In this document: positions 3,739 to 13,002 of the stretch, piece by piece
Position numbering within the stretch: position 1 is the stretch's first letter
Layout of the letters: each line of letters begins with the position of its first letter
NCBI GenBank assembly: GCA_964579445.1
Contig: CAZOGM010000004.1
Location: 15,079 to 79,078, forward strand
Length of the DNA stretch: 64,000 nt
Direction of reading: 5' to 3'
Source: an uncultured Acinetobacter sp.
GTDB taxonomy: Bacteria > Pseudomonadota > Gammaproteobacteria > Pseudomonadales > Moraxellaceae
The notes under the pieces: model-generated
Seen by the model: the letters and a program-made list of their open reading frames with translations, nothing else
Databases searched by the model: none
Told to the model about the DNA's origin: nothing
Position numbers and translations under genes: made by a program

Positions 3739-5502
3739 TTAAATGTTTGATAAAACTATCTTATTCATTTTATTGACCAAACCGCTGCATCTTGTAGTTT
3801 CTATGGTCAATGCCTGTCGTAATGCATTTGGACTAACCAGCAGGCTGACCACTGATTTTGCACGGGTTATTGCGGTATAAATCAGCTCTTGGCTTAAGAG
3901 TTTGGTTGCAGAGTCATCTAGAACCACAGCAGTATGCATAAATTCAGAACCTTGAGACTTATGAATGGTCAAGGCAAAAGCAGTTTGTATTGATTTCGGC
4001 AATCGCGTTGCAGGTATCCATTTGTCTAAACTTGGAAAATAAACTTCGAACAGATCCGTTTGAGTTCTGTGCTTAAAACACAACCCAATATCGCCATTCG
4101 AGATCCCCAACTGATAATCGTTATAGCTCATCATTACGGGACGTCCTATATACCAGTCGCCCTGTTTTACAATGCGAGGCATTAGTCTGAGGCAGGCCTT
4201 TTGCATTTCATCATTTAAACGATCTAGACCCAATTCACCATAGCGAATCGCGGTTAAAATGCGGTAACGATCAAAAGCTTCAATAACCTTCAGCACATCC
4301 TCTTGAGCATAACCATTGCTCATATACCGCTCTAGCGCATGGAAGTAATCTTGATAGCCTGAACTCAGTTTTTCATAATATTGACTTAAGGCAACTGCGC
4401 TGATTTGATCTGGGATGTATTCAAGTTGCACCACATCATTCATTCCTTGTTTTAAAGCAATAGCCTGAAGCTCACCTGCTGTCACAATTTCATGTTCAAA
4501 TGCTTGGAGTATCTGTGCAGAATCAATTTTATGGTTTTGTATAAACTGAGCGGTCTGACCAATGCGTGCCCCTTCCTTAAAACGGCGCGAGGTGATCAGA
4601 TTGATTCGATTTTCTGCCAGTGCCTTAACGTGTTGTAAGTCTGCCAATACAGAGCCGACATCGACAGATGCCAACTGATTGGCATCGCCCAATAAAATCA
4701 GTCGACAATGATCGGGTACAGCTTCAAAGAGCAACGTTGCTAAATTCAGATCGAGCATCGAGGCTTCATCAATCACGATCACATCATAAGGCAAGGGCTG
4801 TTTTAGATTAAATCTAGCTTTAAACTGCGTACCTAGCCCCAAAAGTCGATGCAAAGTGAACGTATCTTGTTGTTTTAAGCGCGCGGAGACCAAACCTAAA
4901 GCATTTAGCTTTTCATCTGCAAATGAGCTTTGCATCGCTTCTTTCATGCGCTGCGCAGCTTTACCCGTTGGGGCTGCCATCGCAATACGAATATCCGGCA
5001 TGCTTTGACTTAATACTGCAATAATTCGCGCTAAGGTATAGGTTTTACCCGTGCCTGGACCACCTGTAATAATATTTAAAGCATTTTTAGCGACCATGTT
5101 CAGGGCACTTTTTTGATGAACATCTTCAAGTAAGTGCTCGAAAGACTGGACATCTACAGTGTCAATGTTTTGCTGTGTCAGGCGCTGAATTTGAAGGGCC
5201 AGACGCTGCTCTAACGTCCAGTAGCGATACAAATAAAGATACTGATCATCAAACACAAAAGGCGCAACTGTTTGATTGCTGGCTTGCTCATCCGAAATTA
5301 TCAAATGATGCAACTGTTCAAGGCTCTGTTCAGGTTTTTCTATACAACTGTCGCCTTGCGTACTGGCAAGCAAAATTTGCTCAATTAAATTAATGGATTG
5401 TTCATTTATTTTTGTATCATTTGAAGTCTGTTTTAGAATGAATTCAGCCCAAGTCCTGACCCACTGTGGCGCTTGACTCTCACGTTGCTGTTTATTTTCC
5501 AC
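3739..5502 (-). CDS. recD: Exodeoxyribonuclease V alpha subunit RecD
   Basis: ITGGPGTGKT Walker A, AAPTGKAAQR, TLHRLLG, IDEASM, LGDANQL, FALTIHKSQGSEF and YTAITRA; downstream of recB. Confidence 0.96.
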   Translation of the reverse strand: MENKQQRESQAPQWVRTWAEFILKQTSNDTKINEQSINLIEQILLASTQGDSCIEKPEQSLEQLHHLIISDEQASNQTVAPFVFDDQYLYLYRYWTLEQRLALQIQRLTQQNIDTVDVQSFEHLLEDVHQKSALNMVAKNALNIITGGPGTGKTYTLARIIAVLSQSMPDIRIAMAAPTGKAAQRMKEAMQSSFADEKLNALGLVSARLKQQDTFTLHRLLGLGTQFKARFNLKQPLPYDVIVIDEASMLDLNLATLLFEAVPDHCRLILLGDANQLASVDVGSVLADLQHVKALAENRINLITSRRFKEGARIGQTAQFIQNHKIDSAQILQAFEHEIVTAGELQAIALKQGMNDVVQLEYIPDQISAVALSQYYEKLSSGYQDYFHALERYMSNGYAQEDVLKVIEAFDRYRILTAIRYGELGLDRLNDEMQKACLRLMPRIVKQGDWYIGRPVMMSYNDYQLGISNGDIGLCFKHRTQTDLFEVYFPSLDKWIPATRLPKSIQTAFALTIHKSQGSEFMHTAVVLDDSATKLLSQELIYTAITRAKSVVSLLVSPNALRQALTIETTRCSGLVNKMNKIVLSNI

Positions 5503-5551
5503 ACAGTTATCCTCAAAGTTATCAACAGAGTTCTAAACACTGTTATCCACA
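5495..5551 (+). repeat. Array of five head-to-tail DnaA-box-like 9-mers with a 12-bp period
   Basis: TTTTCCACA (5495), TTATCCTCA (5507), TTATCAACA (5519), TTCTAAACA (5531, degenerate) and TTATCCACA (5543, perfect); GATC at 5558 and an AT-rich stretch adjacent. Confidence 0.7.
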
Positions 5552-5589
5552 GCGCAAGATCATGTTTAATATTTAATTACCACAATATT

Positions 5590-8500
5590 TCACGCTGTTT
5601 TGATGTTTTTATCATCAGTGAAATGACCCAAAATTGCATCAAGTCTCAAAATGAATTCATTTTCAGGTTTCCAGTACACATAACCTTGTTCGGCTTGCCC
5701 ATTCATACCGCGTAAATACAAATAGGTTGCACCACCCAAATCTCGTTCTATTTGATAATCTTCCAACTGAATTTTCAAATAACGATGCAGTGCCACCAAA
5801 TATAAACCTGCCTGCAACCAATAACTGGCATGGCTCATGCTGTCTTGGATGGCACTGGCTTGATAACTTGCCTGACTTAAACCTAAAAAATTACTTTTAT
5901 AATCTGCAATATGGTATCGCTGACCATCGAAGAACACCAAGTCGATCTCACCCTTAAGATAACGTGCTGAATGGGCATCGTTAAAATCAGGCATCAGGAT
6001 GCCATACTCTTGAAATAATTGGTGAATACGAGGAATGGCTAAGATGCGATCTGAGAGTGCCAAATAAAATGGAAACTCAGCCAAATGCTGATCTGGATGT
6101 AATTGATTGAGCTTAAACTGATTTAAAATTGGCGTTTTTAAAATGTCGTCCAACCAAGACACCATCAAGTCAATTAATAACGCATCAGGTTCAGATTCGT
6201 GCGGAAATGCTTTGGCGACTTTTTCCTGTAGCTCGCGCCATAAAATCACATAATCATTTTTAAAACGGCGTTTAAGCTCCAGTGACCAATGCGCTGAATC
6301 TTTAAAATCGATATGTTCAAAAATCTCATGCAAAAAATTACCTGCCAGCGTTCCCATCGGAAAATTGGCTTTGATCCATGCAATCGGCGCATGATTCAAT
6401 TCTTGACTCAGCTCCTGAGCTACTTCCACATCAATTACAGGCTGATGCAGCTCATCCTCGGCACTGCTTTGTTCAGCATCCATCACGGCCAAAGCATCTT
6501 GGATTTGTTTTCGGGTCAAATGCTGAGCCAAATAACTAAAACTGGTTTTCGCGCGTGGATAAAATCGTTGCGATGGGAAAACAGCTGCATGTAATTCAGC
6601 TTTCTCCGCTGTGGTATGCCCTTTTAATTTGGATGGTTTTTCGGTAATTAAAGGCTGAATCAGACTATACGGATGTGTAAATGCGTCTGCCCCCTGTCCT
6701 CGCCAAAAAGCCAGTCCCGTCGTTGATGTGCCCTTAGTATCGCTGAGCATGGCATACACACGGTGACTTGCCCGTGTCAATGCCACGTACCATAAGCGTC
6801 GATGTTCCGCTAAGTTGCGCTCTTCATGCTGTGCAATCGCTGTTTCATCGAGATTATTTTTATCATGAATGGCGACCACTCGATGCTCTTCCACTTTGCC
6901 CGTCTGTGGATGAATACGCGCTGCTTTAGAAAAATTCAGGGTTTTATTGATTTCGTTGACAGACTTATCTGCACCCAATAAAAACACAATTTTAAACTCT
7001 AAACCTTTAGATTGGTGAATGGTCATCAGCTGAACACCTGCATCATTGGATAGCTTCCGCTCCATTTCCCATTCACGTTGCATGGGTGCAGTGAGCTGTT
7101 TTAAATACCAATAATATAGATTCTGCGCACCTTGATAGCTTTCACTATGCTGACTTAGTGTTTCGGTTAAATGACGTAAATTTACCACTGCGCGCTCATT
7201 GTCACGGCTTTGTTTTTCAACCAACATTGTCCACACCTGAAATTGATTCAGACACAGTTGCCATGCGGTGAGAAAGCCTTGATTCAGCCATACTTCACGA
7301 ATTTGATCAAATTTTTCTATGTAGTGACTTAAGCCATCGGGCTGCATCTCCAGTTGAATCAGCTTTTGTAAATTAAAACCCAAGAGCCGACTGAGCAGCG
7401 CACGTTTAATTTTGGCTTCATCAAAAGGATGCATAATTGCGGTAAGTATTGCACCTACATCACGCGCCACTTGGCTTTCAAAAACACTTTTCTTGGAAGG
7501 TCGATTGAACGCTATCCCCAAATACTCAAGTGCAGATTGGACTTTGTCTAAGCCATCATGATTTTTAGACAACACCGCAATATCACTTTCATCTAAGCCA
7601 CGCGCAGGACTACCTGCAATACTTAACTCGCCTTGAATAGACTGATTTAACAGTTGGCGAATATTCCAAGCGACTTGTTCGGCTTCAGTCTCTTTATCTT
7701 CAAGTTGAATCCAGCGCAGTGGAGACGGATTAAGCTCTTGCTGATCAATCAATGCTGGATGGGGACGACTGCCCGCTTGGACTGGGGTGTAACTGACGTG
7801 CTCGCCAAAATCAATTTGACGTTGAAATAATGCATCGACCACTTCAACCAAGGGCTGAACCGAGCGATGGTTATGAACCAGATGATAAGCATGACCGTCT
7901 TTGCCAAACACATCCTGATGTGCTTTTAAGAAAGTCAGCATATCGCCACCACGAAAACCGTAAATTGCTTGTTTACGATCTCCAACCATGATCATACAGC
8001 CTTGATCAACCCGCTTTGAATGACGCCAAATCTGCGCCAGCATGTCGTCCTGATCCTGATTGGTGTCTTGAAATTCATCCACCAAAATTAAGGGATATCT
8101 TGCATGGACGTAACTGGCAAAGCGTTGCCCTTGCTCTCCTTGCAAAGACTCAGCAAGAGTACGAATTTGCTGTGCAAAGGTGGTTTCACCTTTTTGCTGT
8201 AACACTTGCGGTAAACGTTTTTTCACTTCACTGGCAAGATGGTATTTTAAATAGCTGTCTAGCTGATCCAAATCGAGATTCAGCTTGGCAAGCACTTCAA
8301 TAAAATGCTTTAGCGCCTTGATGACCGTATGCTGTTGAAAGTTGTTCAGTACATCTTCAGGGCATTTGTTTAAAGGCTTCTTGGTGGTGAGTTCAGTGAT
8401 TAGTTTTAACGTGTTGGCATATTGCGCAGCAAACAGCGCATACGCACCTTGTTGTTTTAAGGCTTCAAAGAAATCGGGCAGCTCTTGCAGAAAAAAATGC

Positions 8501-9315
8501 TGCATCTTGGCCTGTTCACGCCATTTTTTCGCCAATATTTTATTGTATTGACCTTCAGCCAAATAATACTCAGACAAGCTTTCCAGTTGCTTTAAATCCA
8601 CTGTTAGCAATGCATCAATTTCTTGAGTAAATGCTTCAAGATCCATGACAGGTGGCAGAACCGCTTGAAAATGCGCAGAAGCAAAGTTCAAACTATTTTC
8701 AACCACAGCAACATAAGCATCTTGTGATTTAAGTTTTTTATTAAACAGTAAGTAATCAACCGTATGCTGAGGTTGTAACTGAATCCATTCACGCAAGACA
8801 TCATGAATCAGCTGATAACTATATTGTTTGGCATCGTCGGTAATGGTCGCGTATTCAATTTTGCCACTTTCAAAGGCGAATTCACGCAGTAACTTTTGAC
8901 TAAAACTGTCCAGCGTCCCCACAAAAAGCTCATCTAACTGGTCTATGACCAATTTAATTCGCTCACAGGCATAGCCTATTCGATTTGAAAATGTCTTGAG
9001 CAAAACTTGAAACAACGGGTCTGCGGCTTGTTCAGCTTGAGCCAAAACCTGTTGTTCTGTCAGTTCTCTACAGCCCTCAAAATACTTTTGGGTTTCAACC
9101 AAGCGCGCCCGTACTCGCGTTTTTAATTCTGCGGCAGCTTTTCGGGTAAAGGTTGTCGCGATGACCTGACTGGGTAAATATTTTTCCAATAAAATTCGCA
9201 CCATCAAACTCGACAGCGTGTAGGTTTTACCCGTTCCTGCGGATGCTTCAATCCAATGCAGGCCACTAAACTGCATATCCTGTATCGGTTGAGTCGAGAC
9301 TTTTTGTGTATTCAT
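5590..9315 (-). CDS. recB: Exodeoxyribonuclease V beta subunit RecB
   Basis: IEASAGTGKT, LVDEFQDT, VGDRKQAIYGFRG, MTIHQSKGLEF, YVALTRA and the C-terminal nuclease motif GEIDLVF...IADYKS. Confidence 0.98.
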   Translation of the reverse strand: MNTQKVSTQPIQDMQFSGLHWIEASAGTGKTYTLSSLMVRILLEKYLPSQVIATTFTRKAAAELKTRVRARLVETQKYFEGCRELTEQQVLAQAEQAADPLFQVLLKTFSNRIGYACERIKLVIDQLDELFVGTLDSFSQKLLREFAFESGKIEYATITDDAKQYSYQLIHDVLREWIQLQPQHTVDYLLFNKKLKSQDAYVAVVENSLNFASAHFQAVLPPVMDLEAFTQEIDALLTVDLKQLESLSEYYLAEGQYNKILAKKWREQAKMQHFFLQELPDFFEALKQQGAYALFAAQYANTLKLITELTTKKPLNKCPEDVLNNFQQHTVIKALKHFIEVLAKLNLDLDQLDSYLKYHLASEVKKRLPQVLQQKGETTFAQQIRTLAESLQGEQGQRFASYVHARYPLILVDEFQDTNQDQDDMLAQIWRHSKRVDQGCMIMVGDRKQAIYGFRGGDMLTFLKAHQDVFGKDGHAYHLVHNHRSVQPLVEVVDALFQRQIDFGEHVSYTPVQAGSRPHPALIDQQELNPSPLRWIQLEDKETEAEQVAWNIRQLLNQSIQGELSIAGSPARGLDESDIAVLSKNHDGLDKVQSALEYLGIAFNRPSKKSVFESQVARDVGAILTAIMHPFDEAKIKRALLSRLLGFNLQKLIQLEMQPDGLSHYIEKFDQIREVWLNQGFLTAWQLCLNQFQVWTMLVEKQSRDNERAVVNLRHLTETLSQHSESYQGAQNLYYWYLKQLTAPMQREWEMERKLSNDAGVQLMTIHQSKGLEFKIVFLLGADKSVNEINKTLNFSKAARIHPQTGKVEEHRVVAIHDKNNLDETAIAQHEERNLAEHRRLWYVALTRASHRVYAMLSDTKGTSTTGLAFWRGQGADAFTHPYSLIQPLITEKPSKLKGHTTAEKAELHAAVFPSQRFYPRAKTSFSYLAQHLTRKQIQDALAVMDAEQSSAEDELHQPVIDVEVAQELSQELNHAPIAWIKANFPMGTLAGNFLHEIFEHIDFKDSAHWSLELKRRFKNDYVILWRELQEKVAKAFPHESEPDALLIDLMVSWLDDILKTPILNQFKLNQLHPDQHLAEFPFYLALSDRILAIPRIHQLFQEYGILMPDFNDAHSARYLKGEIDLVFFDGQRYHIADYKSNFLGLSQASYQASAIQDSMSHASYWLQAGLYLVALHRYLKIQLEDYQIERDLGGATYLYLRGMNGQAEQGYVYWKPENEFILRLDAILGHFTDDKNIKTA

Positions 9316-9318
9316 GTC

Positions 9319-12300
9319 TTATTTCTCAACCACAGTTTGATGGAGATAAATGGGCTCATATAAATCATAAGCGTAGGTATCACAAGCGTGTTGAAGTAAG
9401 GCTGTGGTGTCCTGCTCTTGTAAAATAAACTGCCAATCACGATGCTTCTTACTCCACTCCATATCAGCCAAAGCAAAAGGCAAAAATGAGTCACTCTTGT
9501 CCCATTCCTTTTGTAGATCTTTAAAGTTGGCAAGGGTGGATTTTCCAAATTCATCAGACTGCCATTCTAGTGCTTTGCCTTTTTCAGCCGATAACAGCAA
9601 CAGTGCCGCAGGTAAAACCAAAGGCTGTTGTTGGGCATAGTCATAAGCATGGAGCCAAACCTGCAAATAGCTTCTCGCTTGCGTGGTGGTTAAGCCACTA
9701 TTGATAAGGGTGGCATCACTAAATACAGCAATACGTTCGAGCGCGGTTGAGCGCTGATCGTCTAAATTTAAAAAGTTTAACCAGAGTAAATATTCAAGCC
9801 AGACTTTAGCACGCCGTTTGGCACGCGCACTGGATGCATCTAAGCTGACCCAAGTACTGACCGCCTGTTTAGGTAGCGTAATGTTCATGGTAAGATCAGG
9901 TCGAACGCGCCATTGACGCTGTGTGGTTTGCGTGATGTCAGATGCGTACTGATGCAATCTTTGTTTTAGGCTGTCTTGCTCTGCCAAGCTCATGTTTAAC
10001 ACACTGTGTTGTACTTTGCCGACTGGCAACTGATCTTGCAGAATCCGCAGATCAAAAGATGATTCAGTGTCACCTTGTTGCTGTAAAAAATCCCGAATCG
10101 CATAACGTCCTAAACCATCTAAAACCAAAGGCTCATGTTGTGCTGGTATATCTTGCGGTTTTAAATTTTCAACGCCCAAAGTTTTCAAATATAAGCGCGC
10201 AGGGAAAGTAATATCTTGAATCCATTGTCCGGCATCAATCACTGTGGCATTTTCATCGGGTTTGATATAGACATCATTGACCCACGGTTCACGCTTGTGG
10301 CTGGCCTGCCGCAACTGTTTCGCCACCTCAAACCATTGATCTTGATAACGGCGAGTCGATATGCCATCAAATCCCATCGGGTCAAAGGGCTGTAGAGGAT
10401 GCACCTGATACAACTGTTGAATATGGGTTGCCACTTCAATCCCACTCAAAGAAGTAGTCGGTGCTGAATCACGCTTTGCCTCATCTGTTTCGGCATCAAT
10501 TGCGCTATGTTCTGAGCGGGTAATAAAACCTAAATGGCTAATCAATTCTTGTAAAACACTAGAAGGCTCACGCACTTCACCATCACTGACATCAAAGCCA
10601 TTATAAAACAGCCATAAATTCTGCTGCGCCAGCAAAACGGCATCTAAAAATGCGCCTTGATCATCTTCTAAGCGTGAACGATCTCCTAATTGTGGTTTGA
10701 GTAAATTCATCAAATCAAAAGGCACTTGGGTATTACGGTTTGGAAATTTACCGCTGTCTAAATTCAGCACCACCATCAATTTATAAGGTAGCGGACGAAT
10801 GTGACCCATCTGACTAAAGGTAATTTGTCCTGTCGGAAGTGCCTGTTCAAGCTGACTATCTAAACTACTTTGAATTTCTTCGAGCAAATAAGGTAACGGT
10901 AATTGAATATGATACAACTCATGCTGCTGCGGTTTATCTTTGTCATAGTTGTATGACAAAGTCAGCATGGTGTACTGCTTTTTCACGATTTTATGTACGG
11001 CTTGTAAGGTTTCAACCCCTGCATTTTGAAACTCTTCAATCTCTTGTTTTAAAATATCAAGCCACTGCTCCACGGGTTTACGCAAACCTTGCTCATGCAT
11101 GATCATCCAATCACGGCGTACAGCAAAGTCTTGATAAATTTCAATGAGCTTGGAAATTAATTCAAAATCACGACTCAGTACATGCGCAAAACTTAAAGTC
11201 TCATCAAACATGGTATGTTCAGGAATCGCGATACCTAAGGCCAAACGATCCAGTGCAAATTTAAAACTGAAACGATAATCTTGATCCTCCGCGCTTAAAC
11301 TTTGCTGTAAATGTTCAGCGTCTAAACCGCGTTTAAAGCCTGCATTGACCAATAACTCAACCATACGCTCGGTACGATCAATATCAAGTTCATAACGAAT
11401 TTGTGTAGCACTGAGGCTCAGCCAATCTGCAAAATCTTCTAAGCTAAAGCGTCCAGTCACCAGCTGAATACGCCCCAGTACAGCGCGCCATGCATTGTTT
11501 ACATCAATCTGGGTCACTCCTGCAATTTTCACAGGCAAGAATACGCCGTCTTGAAAACTGCTTTGCGGAAATACGCTCCGAATAAGTGGTTCCATCTGCT
11601 TTAAATCAGGGGCCAAAACTAAAATATCACTGGGACGTCGTGGATGTTCAGGTGTACCTTGCGACAACCAGTGAATCAATTGTTCTTTTAAAACTTCGAG
11701 CTGCCTCAGCCCCGAATGGCAGACATGAATTTGAATGGAATCATCATTTTCCGCCAATACATACCCTTGCTGTTTAGGCTCAACCAAATACAGAATATCG
11801 GACTGTAATTTACCCAACAGATGGCTCGGATACTCATCCACAAAGGCATCAATCCATTGTCCTTCTTCACCTGAAGATAGATTAGAGAGTATCGAGAAAT
11901 GATCACGTGCTTGTTTGCCAAACCGAGTCAATAACGGATGGCGTGACTCACGAACTTCAGCATTAAAATTTAAAGTGAAAGCATCAAAAAATCGCTCAAT
12001 ATCTTCATCTGAGGCGTTCGGATTTTTCGCAATAAATCGTTCTTTCACACTTAAATCGTAACGCTTTTTCCAATTTGGATCGACGCTGTCCGCCCAGTAT
12101 TCTTGCGAAGGGTTGTAGTGCAAAATCAGTACATCAAGATACTGTCCCAAGCGACGTAAAAACTGCAATTGGGAGGGCGGCAAGTCTAACAGCGTAAAAA
12201 TAATCACCTGCTTTGGTAGATTTTTTAAGGCATCCATTCGGCTTATCTCATCATCCATGACCTTCCAAAATTCAAGATCAATAGTTTGCATTTCAACAAA

Positions 12301-13002
12301 ATCATCATGAAAGGTATGTTGCCATAACCAGCGCTGCCACAGCTCTAACTCTTGTGCTTGATTAAACTTAAAACTGACATCTTGATCTTTATTGTGTGGG
12401 AATAACTGTTCAATATCTAAAGCCTGATTTGCACCCCACTGGCTCAACCAGTTGGTAGGACAAGTACATAGGCCTTCACAATTTTTTTGACACTCGCCAC
12501 GGTACTGCATGTAATTAGTAAACAGCTTAGAGACTTGCTCAGACACCCAATACAACATACTTTGTTTTTTGAGCTGTTTTTCAACACTTTGTTCAAGTGT
12601 TGAAGCACTGTCATAAATCCGCTGCACAATCGCAAATAAAGGATGATCTGAGTGAAGCTGATTGTCATCGGTATCAATAAAGGTTTTTAAGGTTTGATAA
12701 ACACGCCATTTCATCATTAAGCGTGGAATATTCGCTTTACGCACATGGTCTTTATCGTCTAACACTTGTTGATAACAAAACCATTGAAAGCCACGAATAC
12801 GCTGATGAAATTGACTGTTGGCACTGATGCCTTGTTGTTCTGCAATGGTTTGGGTCAGCCACTCTTGAATAGCGGGGCTCGGCACCACAAAATGTTCAGT
12901 ACCCAGGACAGCAAAAGGATGCTTTGACGGCTGCTGAATACGTAGCAATACGCCTTGTACCAACACCTCAATTTGCTGGCTTTGAATAACATGAATCCCC
13001 AT
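9319..13002 (-). CDS. recC: Exodeoxyribonuclease V gamma subunit RecC
   Basis: 1227 aa with VVPSPAIQEWL, HVCHSGLRQLEVL, RPLPYK and LEDDQGAFLDA...YNG motifs; directly upstream of recB. Confidence 0.96.
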   Translation of the reverse strand: MGIHVIQSQQIEVLVQGVLLRIQQPSKHPFAVLGTEHFVVPSPAIQEWLTQTIAEQQGISANSQFHQRIRGFQWFCYQQVLDDKDHVRKANIPRLMMKWRVYQTLKTFIDTDDNQLHSDHPLFAIVQRIYDSASTLEQSVEKQLKKQSMLYWVSEQVSKLFTNYMQYRGECQKNCEGLCTCPTNWLSQWGANQALDIEQLFPHNKDQDVSFKFNQAQELELWQRWLWQHTFHDDFVEMQTIDLEFWKVMDDEISRMDALKNLPKQVIIFTLLDLPPSQLQFLRRLGQYLDVLILHYNPSQEYWADSVDPNWKKRYDLSVKERFIAKNPNASDEDIERFFDAFTLNFNAEVRESRHPLLTRFGKQARDHFSILSNLSSGEEGQWIDAFVDEYPSHLLGKLQSDILYLVEPKQQGYVLAENDDSIQIHVCHSGLRQLEVLKEQLIHWLSQGTPEHPRRPSDILVLAPDLKQMEPLIRSVFPQSSFQDGVFLPVKIAGVTQIDVNNAWRAVLGRIQLVTGRFSLEDFADWLSLSATQIRYELDIDRTERMVELLVNAGFKRGLDAEHLQQSLSAEDQDYRFSFKFALDRLALGIAIPEHTMFDETLSFAHVLSRDFELISKLIEIYQDFAVRRDWMIMHEQGLRKPVEQWLDILKQEIEEFQNAGVETLQAVHKIVKKQYTMLTLSYNYDKDKPQQHELYHIQLPLPYLLEEIQSSLDSQLEQALPTGQITFSQMGHIRPLPYKLMVVLNLDSGKFPNRNTQVPFDLMNLLKPQLGDRSRLEDDQGAFLDAVLLAQQNLWLFYNGFDVSDGEVREPSSVLQELISHLGFITRSEHSAIDAETDEAKRDSAPTTSLSGIEVATHIQQLYQVHPLQPFDPMGFDGISTRRYQDQWFEVAKQLRQASHKREPWVNDVYIKPDENATVIDAGQWIQDITFPARLYLKTLGVENLKPQDIPAQHEPLVLDGLGRYAIRDFLQQQGDTESSFDLRILQDQLPVGKVQHSVLNMSLAEQDSLKQRLHQYASDITQTTQRQWRVRPDLTMNITLPKQAVSTWVSLDASSARAKRRAKVWLEYLLWLNFLNLDDQRSTALERIAVFSDATLINSGLTTTQARSYLQVWLHAYDYAQQQPLVLPAALLLLSAEKGKALEWQSDEFGKSTLANFKDLQKEWDKSDSFLPFALADMEWSKKHRDWQFILQEQDTTALLQHACDTYAYDLYEPIYLHQTVVEK

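What the first reader, a model, noticed from the sequence alone, without database searches (positions are those of the whole stretch)
5495..5589. Phased DnaA-box array (exact 12-bp period) between recB and recD
Five same-orientation 9-mers start at 5495, 5507, 5519, 5531 and 5543: one perfect TTATCCACA, three single-mismatch and one degenerate. A GATC and an AT-rich tract (TTTAATATTTAATTA) follow. Head-to-tail phased arrays are how DnaA-ATP filaments assemble at oriC. E. coli also has non-origin DnaA-control loci (datA; DARS1/2 beside the repair genes uvrB and mutH) (established). No dnaA/dnaN/gidA is nearby, so this is probably not oriC. It could be a datA/DARS-like titration or reactivation site, or a DnaA operator that uncouples recD from recCB expression. 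Since RecBC without RecD is hyper-recombinogenic and nuclease-poor, that could tie recombination mode to the cell cycle in an organism carrying pil/com genes (speculative).
Basis: partly seen in the sequence, partly recalled or inferred. Interest (0 to 1): 0.65.

Follow-up and report, generated by a model that had tools for sequence, protein, structure and literature searches.

The report
DnaA-box array over recD start
Between the repair genes recB and recD, this Acinetobacter genome has a strictly spaced row of binding sites for the replication initiator DnaA that covers recD's ribosome-binding site and start codon; it is almost unchanged across the genus and probably links RecBCD repair to replication control.

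Summary
Five same-strand DnaA-box 9-mers sit at an exact 12-bp period at 5495-5551, in the recB-recD spacer. Box 2 contains recD's Shine-Dalgarno sequence and box 1 its GTG start.

This is not chance. Only two sites in the 2.79-Mb genome score as 5-box phased arrays, and both have period 12. The other lies just after rpe.

In 68 of 69 Acinetobacter species the junction carries 3, 5 or 6 boxes, always in 12-bp register. The 36-bp core is 87% identical, against about 42% for the flanks. Conservation within the 12-mer is the reverse of a codon pattern.

Nine bases plus a 3-bp gap, weak box then strong box, is the published in-vivo binding unit of E. coli DnaA. Similar phased triples lie upstream of dnaA across Moraxellaceae, and double or 4-box sites lie upstream of nrdA.

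The recD and rpe arrays occur together in three genera and are absent from the other genera tested.

Best reading: a cooperative DnaA-oligomer site. It most likely blocks transcription from recB into recD when DnaA-ATP is high, or acts as a datA/DARS-like DnaA-control locus. Binding and function are untested, and no description was found in the literature.

The parts
5543..5551 (+). Box 5: perfect DnaA box TTATCCACA. It is the presumed high-affinity anchor, on the recB side of the array, and is the first box met by RNA polymerase coming from recB.
   Evidence: A perfect box sits at this end in 61 of 68 Acinetobacter recD arrays.
5531..5539 (+). Box 4: weak box TTCTAAACA (6/9). In recD's reading frame it gives an in-frame TAG.
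   Evidence: It resembles the weak partner TTGTAAACA of the E. coli datA double box.
5519..5527 (+). Box 3: TTATCAACA (8/9).
5507..5515 (+). Box 2: TTATCCTCA (8/9). Its complement TGAGGATAA holds recD's Shine-Dalgarno sequence GAGGA (5510-5514, minus strand).
   Evidence: It is nearly invariant across 68 species.
5495..5503 (+). Box 1: TTTTCCACA (8/9). Its complement TGTGGAAAA holds recD's GTG start codon (5502-5500) and codon 2.
   Evidence: GTG is at this place in 68 of 68 arrays. tblastn homology to RecD starts at residue 1 here in most of the named species.
5563..5568 (-). Conserved TAAACA/WAACA element, exactly 11 bp upstream (recB side) of the strong box. Its role is unknown; it may be a weak inverted box.
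   Evidence: Seen at a fixed distance in the species listed. It does not fit a sigma-70 promoter.
5590..5592 (-). recB stop codon TGA, 38 bp before the array.
3739..5502 (-). recD (587 aa), which starts inside box 1.
   Evidence: Pfam AAA_19, AAA_30, UvrD_C_2 and the RecD-like SH3 domain.
5590..9315 (-). recB (1241 aa), upstream in the same operon.
   Evidence: Pfam UvrD-helicase and UvrD_C. No promoter or terminator is predicted between recB and recD.

Best explanation
The array is a cooperative binding site for an oligomer of the replication initiator DnaA. It is an extended form (5 boxes here, 3 to 7 in relatives) of the 'double DnaA box', a weak 9-mer followed by 3 bp and then a strong 9-mer in head-to-tail order, which is the in-vivo binding unit of E. 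coli DnaA. In the inferred mechanism, DnaA holds the perfect box next to recB. When DnaA-ATP is abundant (before initiation, or when replication is stalled), further protomers fill the weaker boxes in 12-bp register until the filament covers the DNA that encodes recD's Shine-Dalgarno sequence and GTG start. recD appears to have no promoter of its own and is read through from recB. The filament would therefore act as a roadblock to RNA polymerase, lowering recD relative to recBC and shifting RecBCD towards the RecD-poor, recombination-proficient form. What is shown: the sequence anatomy, the strict phase, DNA-level purifying selection, sister arrays at the dnaA, nrdA and rpe loci, and a canonical DnaA DNA-binding domain. 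What is inferred: DnaA occupancy, its dependence on ATP, and the effect on recD. My odds are about 0.8 that DnaA binds here, about 0.45 that control of recD is the main purpose, and about 0.3 that the main purpose is control of DnaA itself (see the first rival). The two purposes can coexist.
For: Chance is excluded: only two 5-box phased arrays exist in the genome, both at period 12. A 3-box pattern was found in 61 of 61 genus genomes, while the reversed-pattern control gave about 0. The array is conserved: 68 of 69 Acinetobacter species carry 3, 5 or 6 boxes at the junction, always in 12-bp register, with GTG in the last box in 68 of 68. The 36-bp core has 0.87 pairwise identity per column, against 0.41-0.43 in the flanks. 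The unit consensus TGT[G/t]GATAA[C/g][T/c]n is the DnaA box plus flanks; positions 11-12 are free and position 1 is invariant, the opposite of a codon pattern. The geometry and polarity match the E. coli ChIP-seq sites at datA, polA, purH and oriC R4/C1, where adding 1 bp to the spacer greatly reduces binding. Phased triples lie upstream of dnaA across Moraxellaceae, and double or 4-box sites lie upstream of nrdA, a known DnaA target. DnaA domain IV matches the solved E. coli domain IV sequence (1J1V) at E = 5e-29. The boxes lie inside a transcription unit: no promoter or terminator is predicted in the spacer. A roadblock role for DnaA is described in the literature. In 17 genomes of 13 array-less genera, recB and recD are adjacent without any phased boxes.
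Against: The sister array after rpe sits between rpe's stop codon and its terminator with no conserved downstream gene, so at least one array is not a gene-specific operator. That favours a function centred on DnaA itself. Part of the conservation of boxes 1-2 is owed to the Shine-Dalgarno sequence and start codon they contain. In E. coli ChIP-seq the classical intragenic roadblock site in guaB was not occupied, so DnaA roadblocks may be weak in vivo. In genus g123 the array lacks a Shine-Dalgarno-type box and seems partly translated, so overlap with the recD ribosome-binding site is not universal.
Confidence: 0.5

Rival explanations
1. The array is a DnaA-control locus comparable to datA or DARS. 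Together with the rpe array, it binds DnaA oligomers in order to change the state of DnaA (titration, stimulated ATP hydrolysis or nucleotide exchange). Its place at recD's start is incidental: a short transcribed spacer at a fixed distance from oriC.
For: The recD and rpe arrays occur together in exactly three genera (Acinetobacter, g123, g125) and are both absent from the other genera tested. The rpe array has no conserved downstream gene. In four complete genomes the two loci lie at about 9-10% and 20-23% of chromosome length from the dnaA-proximal array. Both lie just downstream of a co-directional gene and are read through, as E. coli datA is from glyVXY. In 11 of 30 species the rpe locus has an exact IHF-type core (ATCAAN4TTR) 23 bp after the array.
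Against: Five to ten bound protomers per chromosome copy is a negligible sink unless the site is catalytic. No IHF-type site lies near the recD array (2 of 68). No clear head-to-head box pair of the DARS-core type is present. The array is locked to recD's start codon in 68 of 68 species, which a pure DnaA-control site would not need.
Confidence: 0.27
2. The array is the site of a different DNA-binding protein that recognises TGTGGATAAC-like 12-mers, and its likeness to DnaA boxes is a coincidence of motif.
For: Occupancy is untested. A conserved WAACA element at a fixed 11-bp distance hints at a partner site.
Against: The best box is the exact universal DnaA consensus. The same phased design sits upstream of dnaA and of nrdA. 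The spacing and the weak-then-strong polarity equal proven E. coli DnaA sites.
Confidence: 0.07
3. The feature works at the level of translation or protein. Either the repeat encodes an N-terminal (V/E)(D/E)N-x repeat of RecD, or it is an mRNA element that tunes recD translation.
For: The recD frame reads V-D-N-x and is open through the array in 58 of 68 species. In genus g123 the recD ORF runs through a 7-box array. Another first-stage note read the same stretch this way.
Against: This genome has an in-frame TAG, and 10 of 68 species have in-frame stops. That frame can hardly contain stops by construction. The 'codon' at unit positions 11, 12 and 1 is free at its first two bases and fixed at its third. 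The synonymous codon GAG is avoided while GAA to GAC (Glu to Asp) is accepted. The same array exists after rpe with no ORF. The RNA fold is not significant (z = -1.3) and there is no Rfam hit.
Confidence: 0.05
4. The array is a cryptic secondary DnaA-dependent unwinding site or origin, made of a box array followed by an AT-rich tract.
For: A strong box followed by a short GC stretch and then an AT-rich tract (5552-5579) resembles, from my recall of the E. coli oriC sequence, the order of R1 and the unwinding element there (own sequence). DnaA-dependent initiation away from oriC is reported in E. coli mutants.
Against: The AT-rich stretch is only about 25 bp and runs into the recB coding sequence. 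The site lies inside an operon. The true dnaA-linked box cluster is elsewhere. The spacer sequence is not conserved apart from WAACA.
Confidence: 0.03

Closest known systems
'Double DnaA boxes' of the E. coli DnaA regulon (Stringer, Fitzgerald & Wade 2024, PMC11317965)
   Same: Both have head-to-tail 9-mers separated by 3 bp, a weaker box 5' of a consensus TTATCCACA, and G/A-rich spacers (gag, aag, cag). Both are associated with replication, nucleotide-synthesis and repair genes. nrdA carries such a site in both organisms.
   Different: Here there are 3 to 7 boxes instead of 2. The site lies inside an operon, on top of a Shine-Dalgarno sequence and start codon, rather than upstream of a promoter. 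recD is not a known DnaA target.
DnaA-oligomerisation arrays of E. coli oriC (R4-C1-I3-C2-C3 and R1-R5M-tau2-I1-I2)
   Same: Both have one high-affinity anchor box followed by about four weaker same-orientation boxes at a fixed short spacing, and so predict an ATP-DnaA pentamer. The R4/C1 pair is listed with 3-bp spacing; the rest is from my knowledge of the oriC literature.
   Different: There is no second opposed array and no adequate unwinding element. The site is not linked to dnaA and lies about 300 kb from the origin region.
datA (E. coli DnaA-ATP-hydrolysis locus)
   Same: Both are non-origin DnaA-box clusters with a weak-3 bp-strong pair (cTTGTAAACAgagTTATCCACAg). Both lie a few hundred kb from oriC, immediately downstream of a transcription unit, and are read through by it.
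   Different: datA needs an IHF site and an opposed box 7. No IHF-type site is present at the recD array. There is no sequence or synteny relationship, and the activity is untested.
DARS1/DARS2 (E. coli DnaA-reactivating sequences beside uvrB and mutH)
   Same: Both are DnaA-box clusters that contain a double box and lie next to DNA-repair genes.
   Different: From my recall of the DARS literature, the DARS core has one box in the opposite orientation to the other two, and DARS2 needs IHF and Fis. Here all the boxes point the same way, with only a weak inverted WAACA 11 bp away.
Bacillus subtilis DnaA-box clusters (stable DnaA-binding intergenic regions; Ishikawa et al. 2007, PMC2533591)
   Same: Both are conserved multi-box DnaA sites outside the origin, some of them next to genes that DnaA regulates (abstract).
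   Different: From my knowledge, the B. subtilis clusters have many boxes in mixed orientation and spacing in ordinary intergenic regions. The Acinetobacter array is short, strictly phased and fused to a translation start.
DnaA roadblock sites inside transcription units (asnC and guaB in E. coli)
   Same: In both cases DnaA is bound within transcribed DNA and is proposed to stop elongating RNA polymerase (cited).
   Different: Those are single boxes, and the guaB site was not bound in ChIP-seq. Here a multi-box array is placed exactly at the boundary between two genes of one enzyme.

Membership tests
Cooperative DnaA-box array (multi 'double DnaA box') | 9-mers that match TTATCCACA, including at least one consensus box | tested here: met
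   One perfect box, three boxes at 8/9 and one at 6/9. A perfect box is present in 61 of 68 orthologous arrays.
Cooperative DnaA-box array (multi 'double DnaA box') | Head-to-tail boxes 2-3 bp apart, with the weak box 5' of the strong box | tested here: met
   All gaps are exactly 3 bp. The polarity matches the E. coli sites.
Cooperative DnaA-box array (multi 'double DnaA box') | Selection on the DNA sequence and on the register | tested here: met
   Copy number changes only in whole 12-bp units (3, 5, 6 or 7 boxes).
Cooperative DnaA-box array (multi 'double DnaA box') | The organism's DnaA has a canonical box-reading domain IV | tested here: met
   Match to the sequence of E. coli DnaA domain IV (1J1V) at E = 5e-29. 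The RPRQ and GGRDHxTVxHA motifs are visible in the alignment to B. subtilis DnaA.
Cooperative DnaA-box array (multi 'double DnaA box') | DnaA occupancy in vivo or in vitro | not testable with these tools
oriC | The chromosome's main box cluster with an unwinding element, at the dnaA/rpmH locus | tested here: not met
   The rpmH-dnaA spacer with its boxes and AT-rich repeats is on contig C41. In complete relatives the recD array lies 291-327 kb from it.
datA | An IHF-binding site within the box cluster | tested here: not met
   The ATCAAN4TTR core occurs within 80 bp upstream in only 2 of 68 species and not in this genome.
datA | Stimulation of DnaA-ATP hydrolysis | not testable with these tools
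   This needs a biochemical assay.
DARS | A core with one box opposed to two head-to-tail boxes (feature taken from my recall of the DARS literature) | tested here: inconclusive
   All five boxes point the same way. Only a weak inverted box-like WAACA lies 11 bp from the strong box.
DnaA-regulated promoter operator (nrdA type) | Boxes at or upstream of a promoter of the regulated gene | tested here: not met
   No sigma-70-like promoter is found in 5300-5900. The array abuts the start codon, so no promoter can lie downstream of it.
DnaA transcriptional roadblock | Boxes inside a transcription unit | tested here: met
   recB and recD are 87 bp apart on the same strand, with no promoter or terminator predicted between them. 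This rests on prediction only.
DnaA transcriptional roadblock | DnaA-dependent truncated transcripts | not testable with these tools
   RNA runs could not be reached.
Coding tandem repeat (RecD N-terminal VDNx) | An open frame with a codon-like conservation pattern | tested here: not met
   There is an in-frame TAG here and in-frame stops in 10 of 68 species. The conservation pattern is the reverse of a codon pattern.

The most novel reading that the evidence does not exclude
The recD and rpe arrays are a lineage-specific pair of non-origin DnaA-control loci in Acinetobacter and two sister genera. They would be functional counterparts of datA/DARS in a group which, from general knowledge, lacks the Dam/SeqA system. 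The recD array would be dual-use: the same DnaA-ATP filament that is sensed or processed there also gates RecD synthesis. In that case the nuclease-versus-recombinase mode of RecBCD would follow replication status directly. From general knowledge, Acinetobacter also lacks a classical LexA SOS response.
Probability: 0.2. Interest if true: 0.8.

Novelty: new variant of a known kind. Interest (0 to 1): 0.6.

Why it matters
How DnaA activity is controlled outside the enterobacteria is largely unknown, because datA and the DARS loci are specific to E. coli and its relatives. This finding gives two short, sharply defined and strongly conserved candidate DnaA sites in Acinetobacter. One of them is fused to the translation start of recD, the subunit that decides whether RecBCD degrades or recombines DNA. 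That makes two questions directly testable in a transformable laboratory strain. Does DnaA couple double-strand-break processing and natural transformation to the replication cycle or to replication stress? Do non-enteric gamma-proteobacteria have their own DnaA-control loci? The result also extends the 'double DnaA box' rule from pairs to arrays of up to seven boxes. It shows that the 12-bp register is kept across the family Moraxellaceae.

Tried and rejected

- **Internal recD promoter or recB terminator:** none is predicted. TAAACA-N17-TAACTT is too weak and is not conserved as a promoter.
- **Structured RNA:** the fold is not significant and there is no Rfam match.
- **Coding repeat:** rejected.
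- **Variable-number or phase-variable repeat:** rejected. Two near-identical 3-box variants account for 29 A. lwoffii-group genomes, with no change in copy number.
- **Mobile element:** rejected. There are only two copies per genome, at orthologous sites.
- **GATC/Dam-SeqA link:** the GATC is not conserved.
- **IHF site at the recD array:** absent.
- **Literature:** searches for a prior description in Acinetobacter found nothing.
- **CsrA-type GGA sites:** I considered these by eye. They are rejected because several boxes lack GGA, while the ATAA half that matters for DnaA is invariant.
Full report
**1. The observation**

The window's + strand reads TTTTCCACA-cag-TTATCCTCA-aag-TTATCAACA-gag-TTCTAAACA-ctg-TTATCCACA at 5495-5551. 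That is five same-orientation DnaA-box-like 9-mers at an exact 12-bp period: one perfect, three with one mismatch and one with three mismatches. Tandem Repeats Finder reports period 12.

All the genes lie on the minus strand. They are recC (9319-13002), recB (5590-9315, stop TGA at 5590-5592) and recD (3739-5502), confirmed by Pfam.

Read on the coding strand, the array is TGTGGATAAC ag TGTTTAGAAC tc TGTTGATAAC tt TGAGGATAAC tg TGTGGAAAAT. The fourth unit contains recD's Shine-Dalgarno sequence GAGGA, and the fifth contains its GTG start.

**2. Chance**

I scored every position of the organism's own 2.79-Mb assembly for five phased boxes at periods 9 to 15.
- Only two sites reach 33 of 45 or more, and both have period 12. 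One is this array (39/45). The other lies on contig C19 just after rpe (38/45).
- 3-box and 4-box scores give the same two loci and nothing at any other period.
- Across 61 genomes of the genus, a degenerate 3-box pattern hit every genome (3 to 20 hits each). The same pattern read backwards gave 0 to 4.

**3. Conservation at the recB-recD junction**

I examined the junction in 69 species of the genus; named examples confirm that the genus is Acinetobacter.
- 68 of 69 carry an array of 3, 5 or 6 boxes, always in exact 12-bp register. The 69th fetch probably missed the junction.
- Named species include A. lwoffii (3 boxes), A. guillouiae, A. gerneri and A. silvestris (5), and A. calcoaceticus, A. 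tjernbergiae and A. colistiniresistens (6).
- The three boxes nearest recD, TGTGGATAAC-TT-TGAGGATAAC-TG-TGTGGAAAAT, are almost invariant. Mean pairwise identity per column is 0.87, against 0.41-0.43 for the upstream spacer and for the first 80 nt of recD.
- In the first whole-genus DNA search, this 40-bp piece matched at 90-100% identity as a separate hit, while the coding flanks matched at about 70%.
- GTG sits in the last box in 68 of 68 arrays.
- The perfect box is at the recB end in 61 of 68.
- Copy number does not vary among about 29 A. lwoffii-group genomes, so this is not a slippage-prone variable repeat.

**4. DNA-level versus protein-level constraint**

In recD's frame the units read V-D-N-x, and another first-stage note had read the stretch as an N-terminal repeat cut by TAG. 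Four results argue against a coding reading.
- The frame is closed by TAG in this genome and by stops in 10 of 68 species.
- That frame can hardly acquire stops given the box sequence, so its openness elsewhere is uninformative.
- The unit profile is T-G-T-[G/t]-G-A-T-A-A-[C/g]-[T/c]-n. Positions 11 and 12 are free and position 1 is invariant. The 'fourth codon' is thus free at its first two bases and fixed at its third, which is the reverse of a coding pattern.
- At recD codon 2, Glu to Asp (GAA to GAC) occurs but the synonymous GAG does not. This fits the box profile, in which G is disfavoured at that position.

As RNA the region folds no better than shuffled sequence (z = -1.3), and it matches no Rfam family.

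**5. Why DnaA**

- The best box is the universal consensus, with the flanking G seen at strong E. coli boxes.
- The geometry matches published ChIP-seq. Stringer, Fitzgerald and Wade (2024) showed that E. coli DnaA binds in vivo almost only to 'double DnaA boxes': a weaker box, 2-3 bp, then a strong box, head to tail. Examples are datA (cTTGTAAACAgagTTATCCACAg), polA, purH and oriC R4/C1. Adding one base pair to the spacer greatly reduced binding. The array here has the same spacing, the same polarity and even similar spacers (gag, aag, cag), extended to five boxes.
- The same design lies upstream of dnaA in the rpmH-dnaA spacer. This genome has a weak phased triple there, other Acinetobacter have one too, and most other Moraxellaceae genera have triples of near-perfect boxes.
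- The only other good double box at 12-bp spacing in this genome lies upstream of nrdA, a classical DnaA target. Two sister genera have 4-box arrays there.
- The organism's DnaA has a canonical DNA-binding domain.

I put the probability that DnaA binds the array at about 0.8. Binding itself is not shown.

**6. The wider system**

The second array lies 28 bp after the rpe stop codon and before rpe's bidirectional terminator.
- It was found in all 30 genus loci examined, usually with 5 boxes and always with the perfect box next to the rpe stop. No downstream gene is conserved.
- In four complete genomes, the recD array is 291-327 kb from the dnaA-proximal array (9-10% of the chromosome). The rpe array is 628-748 kb from it (20-23%). 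Both host genes run in the same direction as replication, so polymerases meet the strong box first.
- Both arrays are present in Acinetobacter and in two other genera of the family (g123 and g125, with 7 boxes at recD and 3 after rpe).
- The recD array is absent from 17 genomes of 13 further genera, where recB and recD are still adjacent. The rpe array is absent from 5 further genera.

The two arrays were therefore gained, or at least kept, together in one clade.

**7. Mechanism**

The anatomy is one anchor box, followed by weaker boxes in register, ending on recD's ribosome-binding site and start codon. It predicts a DnaA filament that grows from the anchor as DnaA-ATP rises. No promoter or terminator is predicted in the spacer, so recD is probably read through from recB.

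DnaA bound inside transcription units has been described as a roadblock. My preferred explanation is therefore a DnaA-dependent roadblock. It would lower recD relative to recBC when DnaA-ATP is high, for example before initiation or during replication stress.

The main rival is that both arrays serve DnaA itself, as datA and the DARS loci do. The gene-less rpe array, the co-inheritance of the two arrays and their conserved distance from the origin favour this rival. So does the parallel with datA, which also lies just downstream of a transcription unit and is regulated by read-through. Against it:
- there is no IHF-type site at the recD array;
- no opposed box pair is present;
- so few boxes have a small titration capacity;
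- the array is rigidly fused to recD's start.

The two roles are compatible.

**8. Comparison with known systems, and novelty**

The array meets the sequence-level criteria of a cooperative DnaA-box array. It fails the tests for oriC, for datA (IHF site) and for a promoter operator, and the test for DARS is inconclusive.

Literature searches found no description of these arrays in Acinetobacter. An earlier report of this scan on another Acinetobacter genome reached the same reading; that is agreement, not independent evidence.

I rate it a new variant of a known kind. It is a multi-box, strictly phased, non-origin DnaA array written over a translation start inside the recBCD operon, and it is paired with a second array elsewhere.

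**9. Limits**

Genera other than Acinetobacter are known only by anonymous handles. Flank identities come from ungapped anchored alignments and so somewhat understate flank conservation.

Noticed in passing
L081:785-841 (own genome, contig C19:32284-32340): A second 5-box, 12-bp-phased DnaA-box array lies 28 bp after the rpe stop and before rpe's bidirectional terminator. It was found in all 30 genus loci examined and in two sister genera, and no downstream gene is conserved.
   Followed up: yes
own genome, contig C22:4666-4686: A double DnaA box (GTTATCCACAgccTTATCTATA) lies about 250 bp upstream of nrdA, in the divergent spacer shared with an OmpR-type response regulator. The sister genera g123 and g125 have 4-box arrays at the same place.
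   Followed up: partly
own genome, contig C41:4287-4319 and 4536-4590: The rpmH-dnaA spacer, the probable oriC, contains a weak 12-bp-phased triple (ATATCTACA, ATATCCTCA, TTATCCATA), mixed-orientation perfect boxes and repeated ATTTAAATTTA motifs.
   Followed up: partly
window 5563-5568 (minus strand): A TAAACA/WAACA element lies exactly 11 bp upstream of the strong box in the species I inspected. A TAAACA-like element also follows the rpe array. Its role is unknown; it may be a weak inverted box or a partner-protein site.
   Followed up: partly
L126-L147 (rpe loci of relatives), 23 bp after the array: An exact IHF-type core (ATCAAN4TTR) lies at a fixed position in 11 of 30 species, with one-mismatch versions in others, including this genome. 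The genome background is 0.32 hits per kb.
   Followed up: partly
L081:1292-1361 (own genome, contig C19, upstream of two SMR-family genes): Two short hairpins with ACGA loops give a sub-threshold Guanidine-II (mini-ykkC) riboswitch match (17.4 bits, gathering score 32) just upstream of small multidrug-resistance/Gdx-like genes. It is probably a real riboswitch.
   Followed up: no
L068:2703-2783 and L070:2502-2582 (genus g123): The recB-recD array here has 7 boxes and no Shine-Dalgarno-type box, and the recD ORF is open through it (MDNSVDNPVGKFVDKPVDN...). Part of the DnaA-box array is therefore probably translated as a RecD N-terminal repeat in that genus.
   Followed up: partly
L077:2478-2510 (genus g117): Three perfect TTATCCACA boxes at 12-bp period lie between an unidentified 473-aa ORF and a GST-like gene, not at dnaA, recD, rpe or nrdA.
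   Followed up: no
one search hits, e.g. G124:C37:228425, G289:C41:3033, G198:C47:218177: 12-bp-phased DnaA-box triples or quadruples also occur in other families of the order. One sequence is conserved in four genomes of one genus. Their loci were not identified.
   Followed up: no
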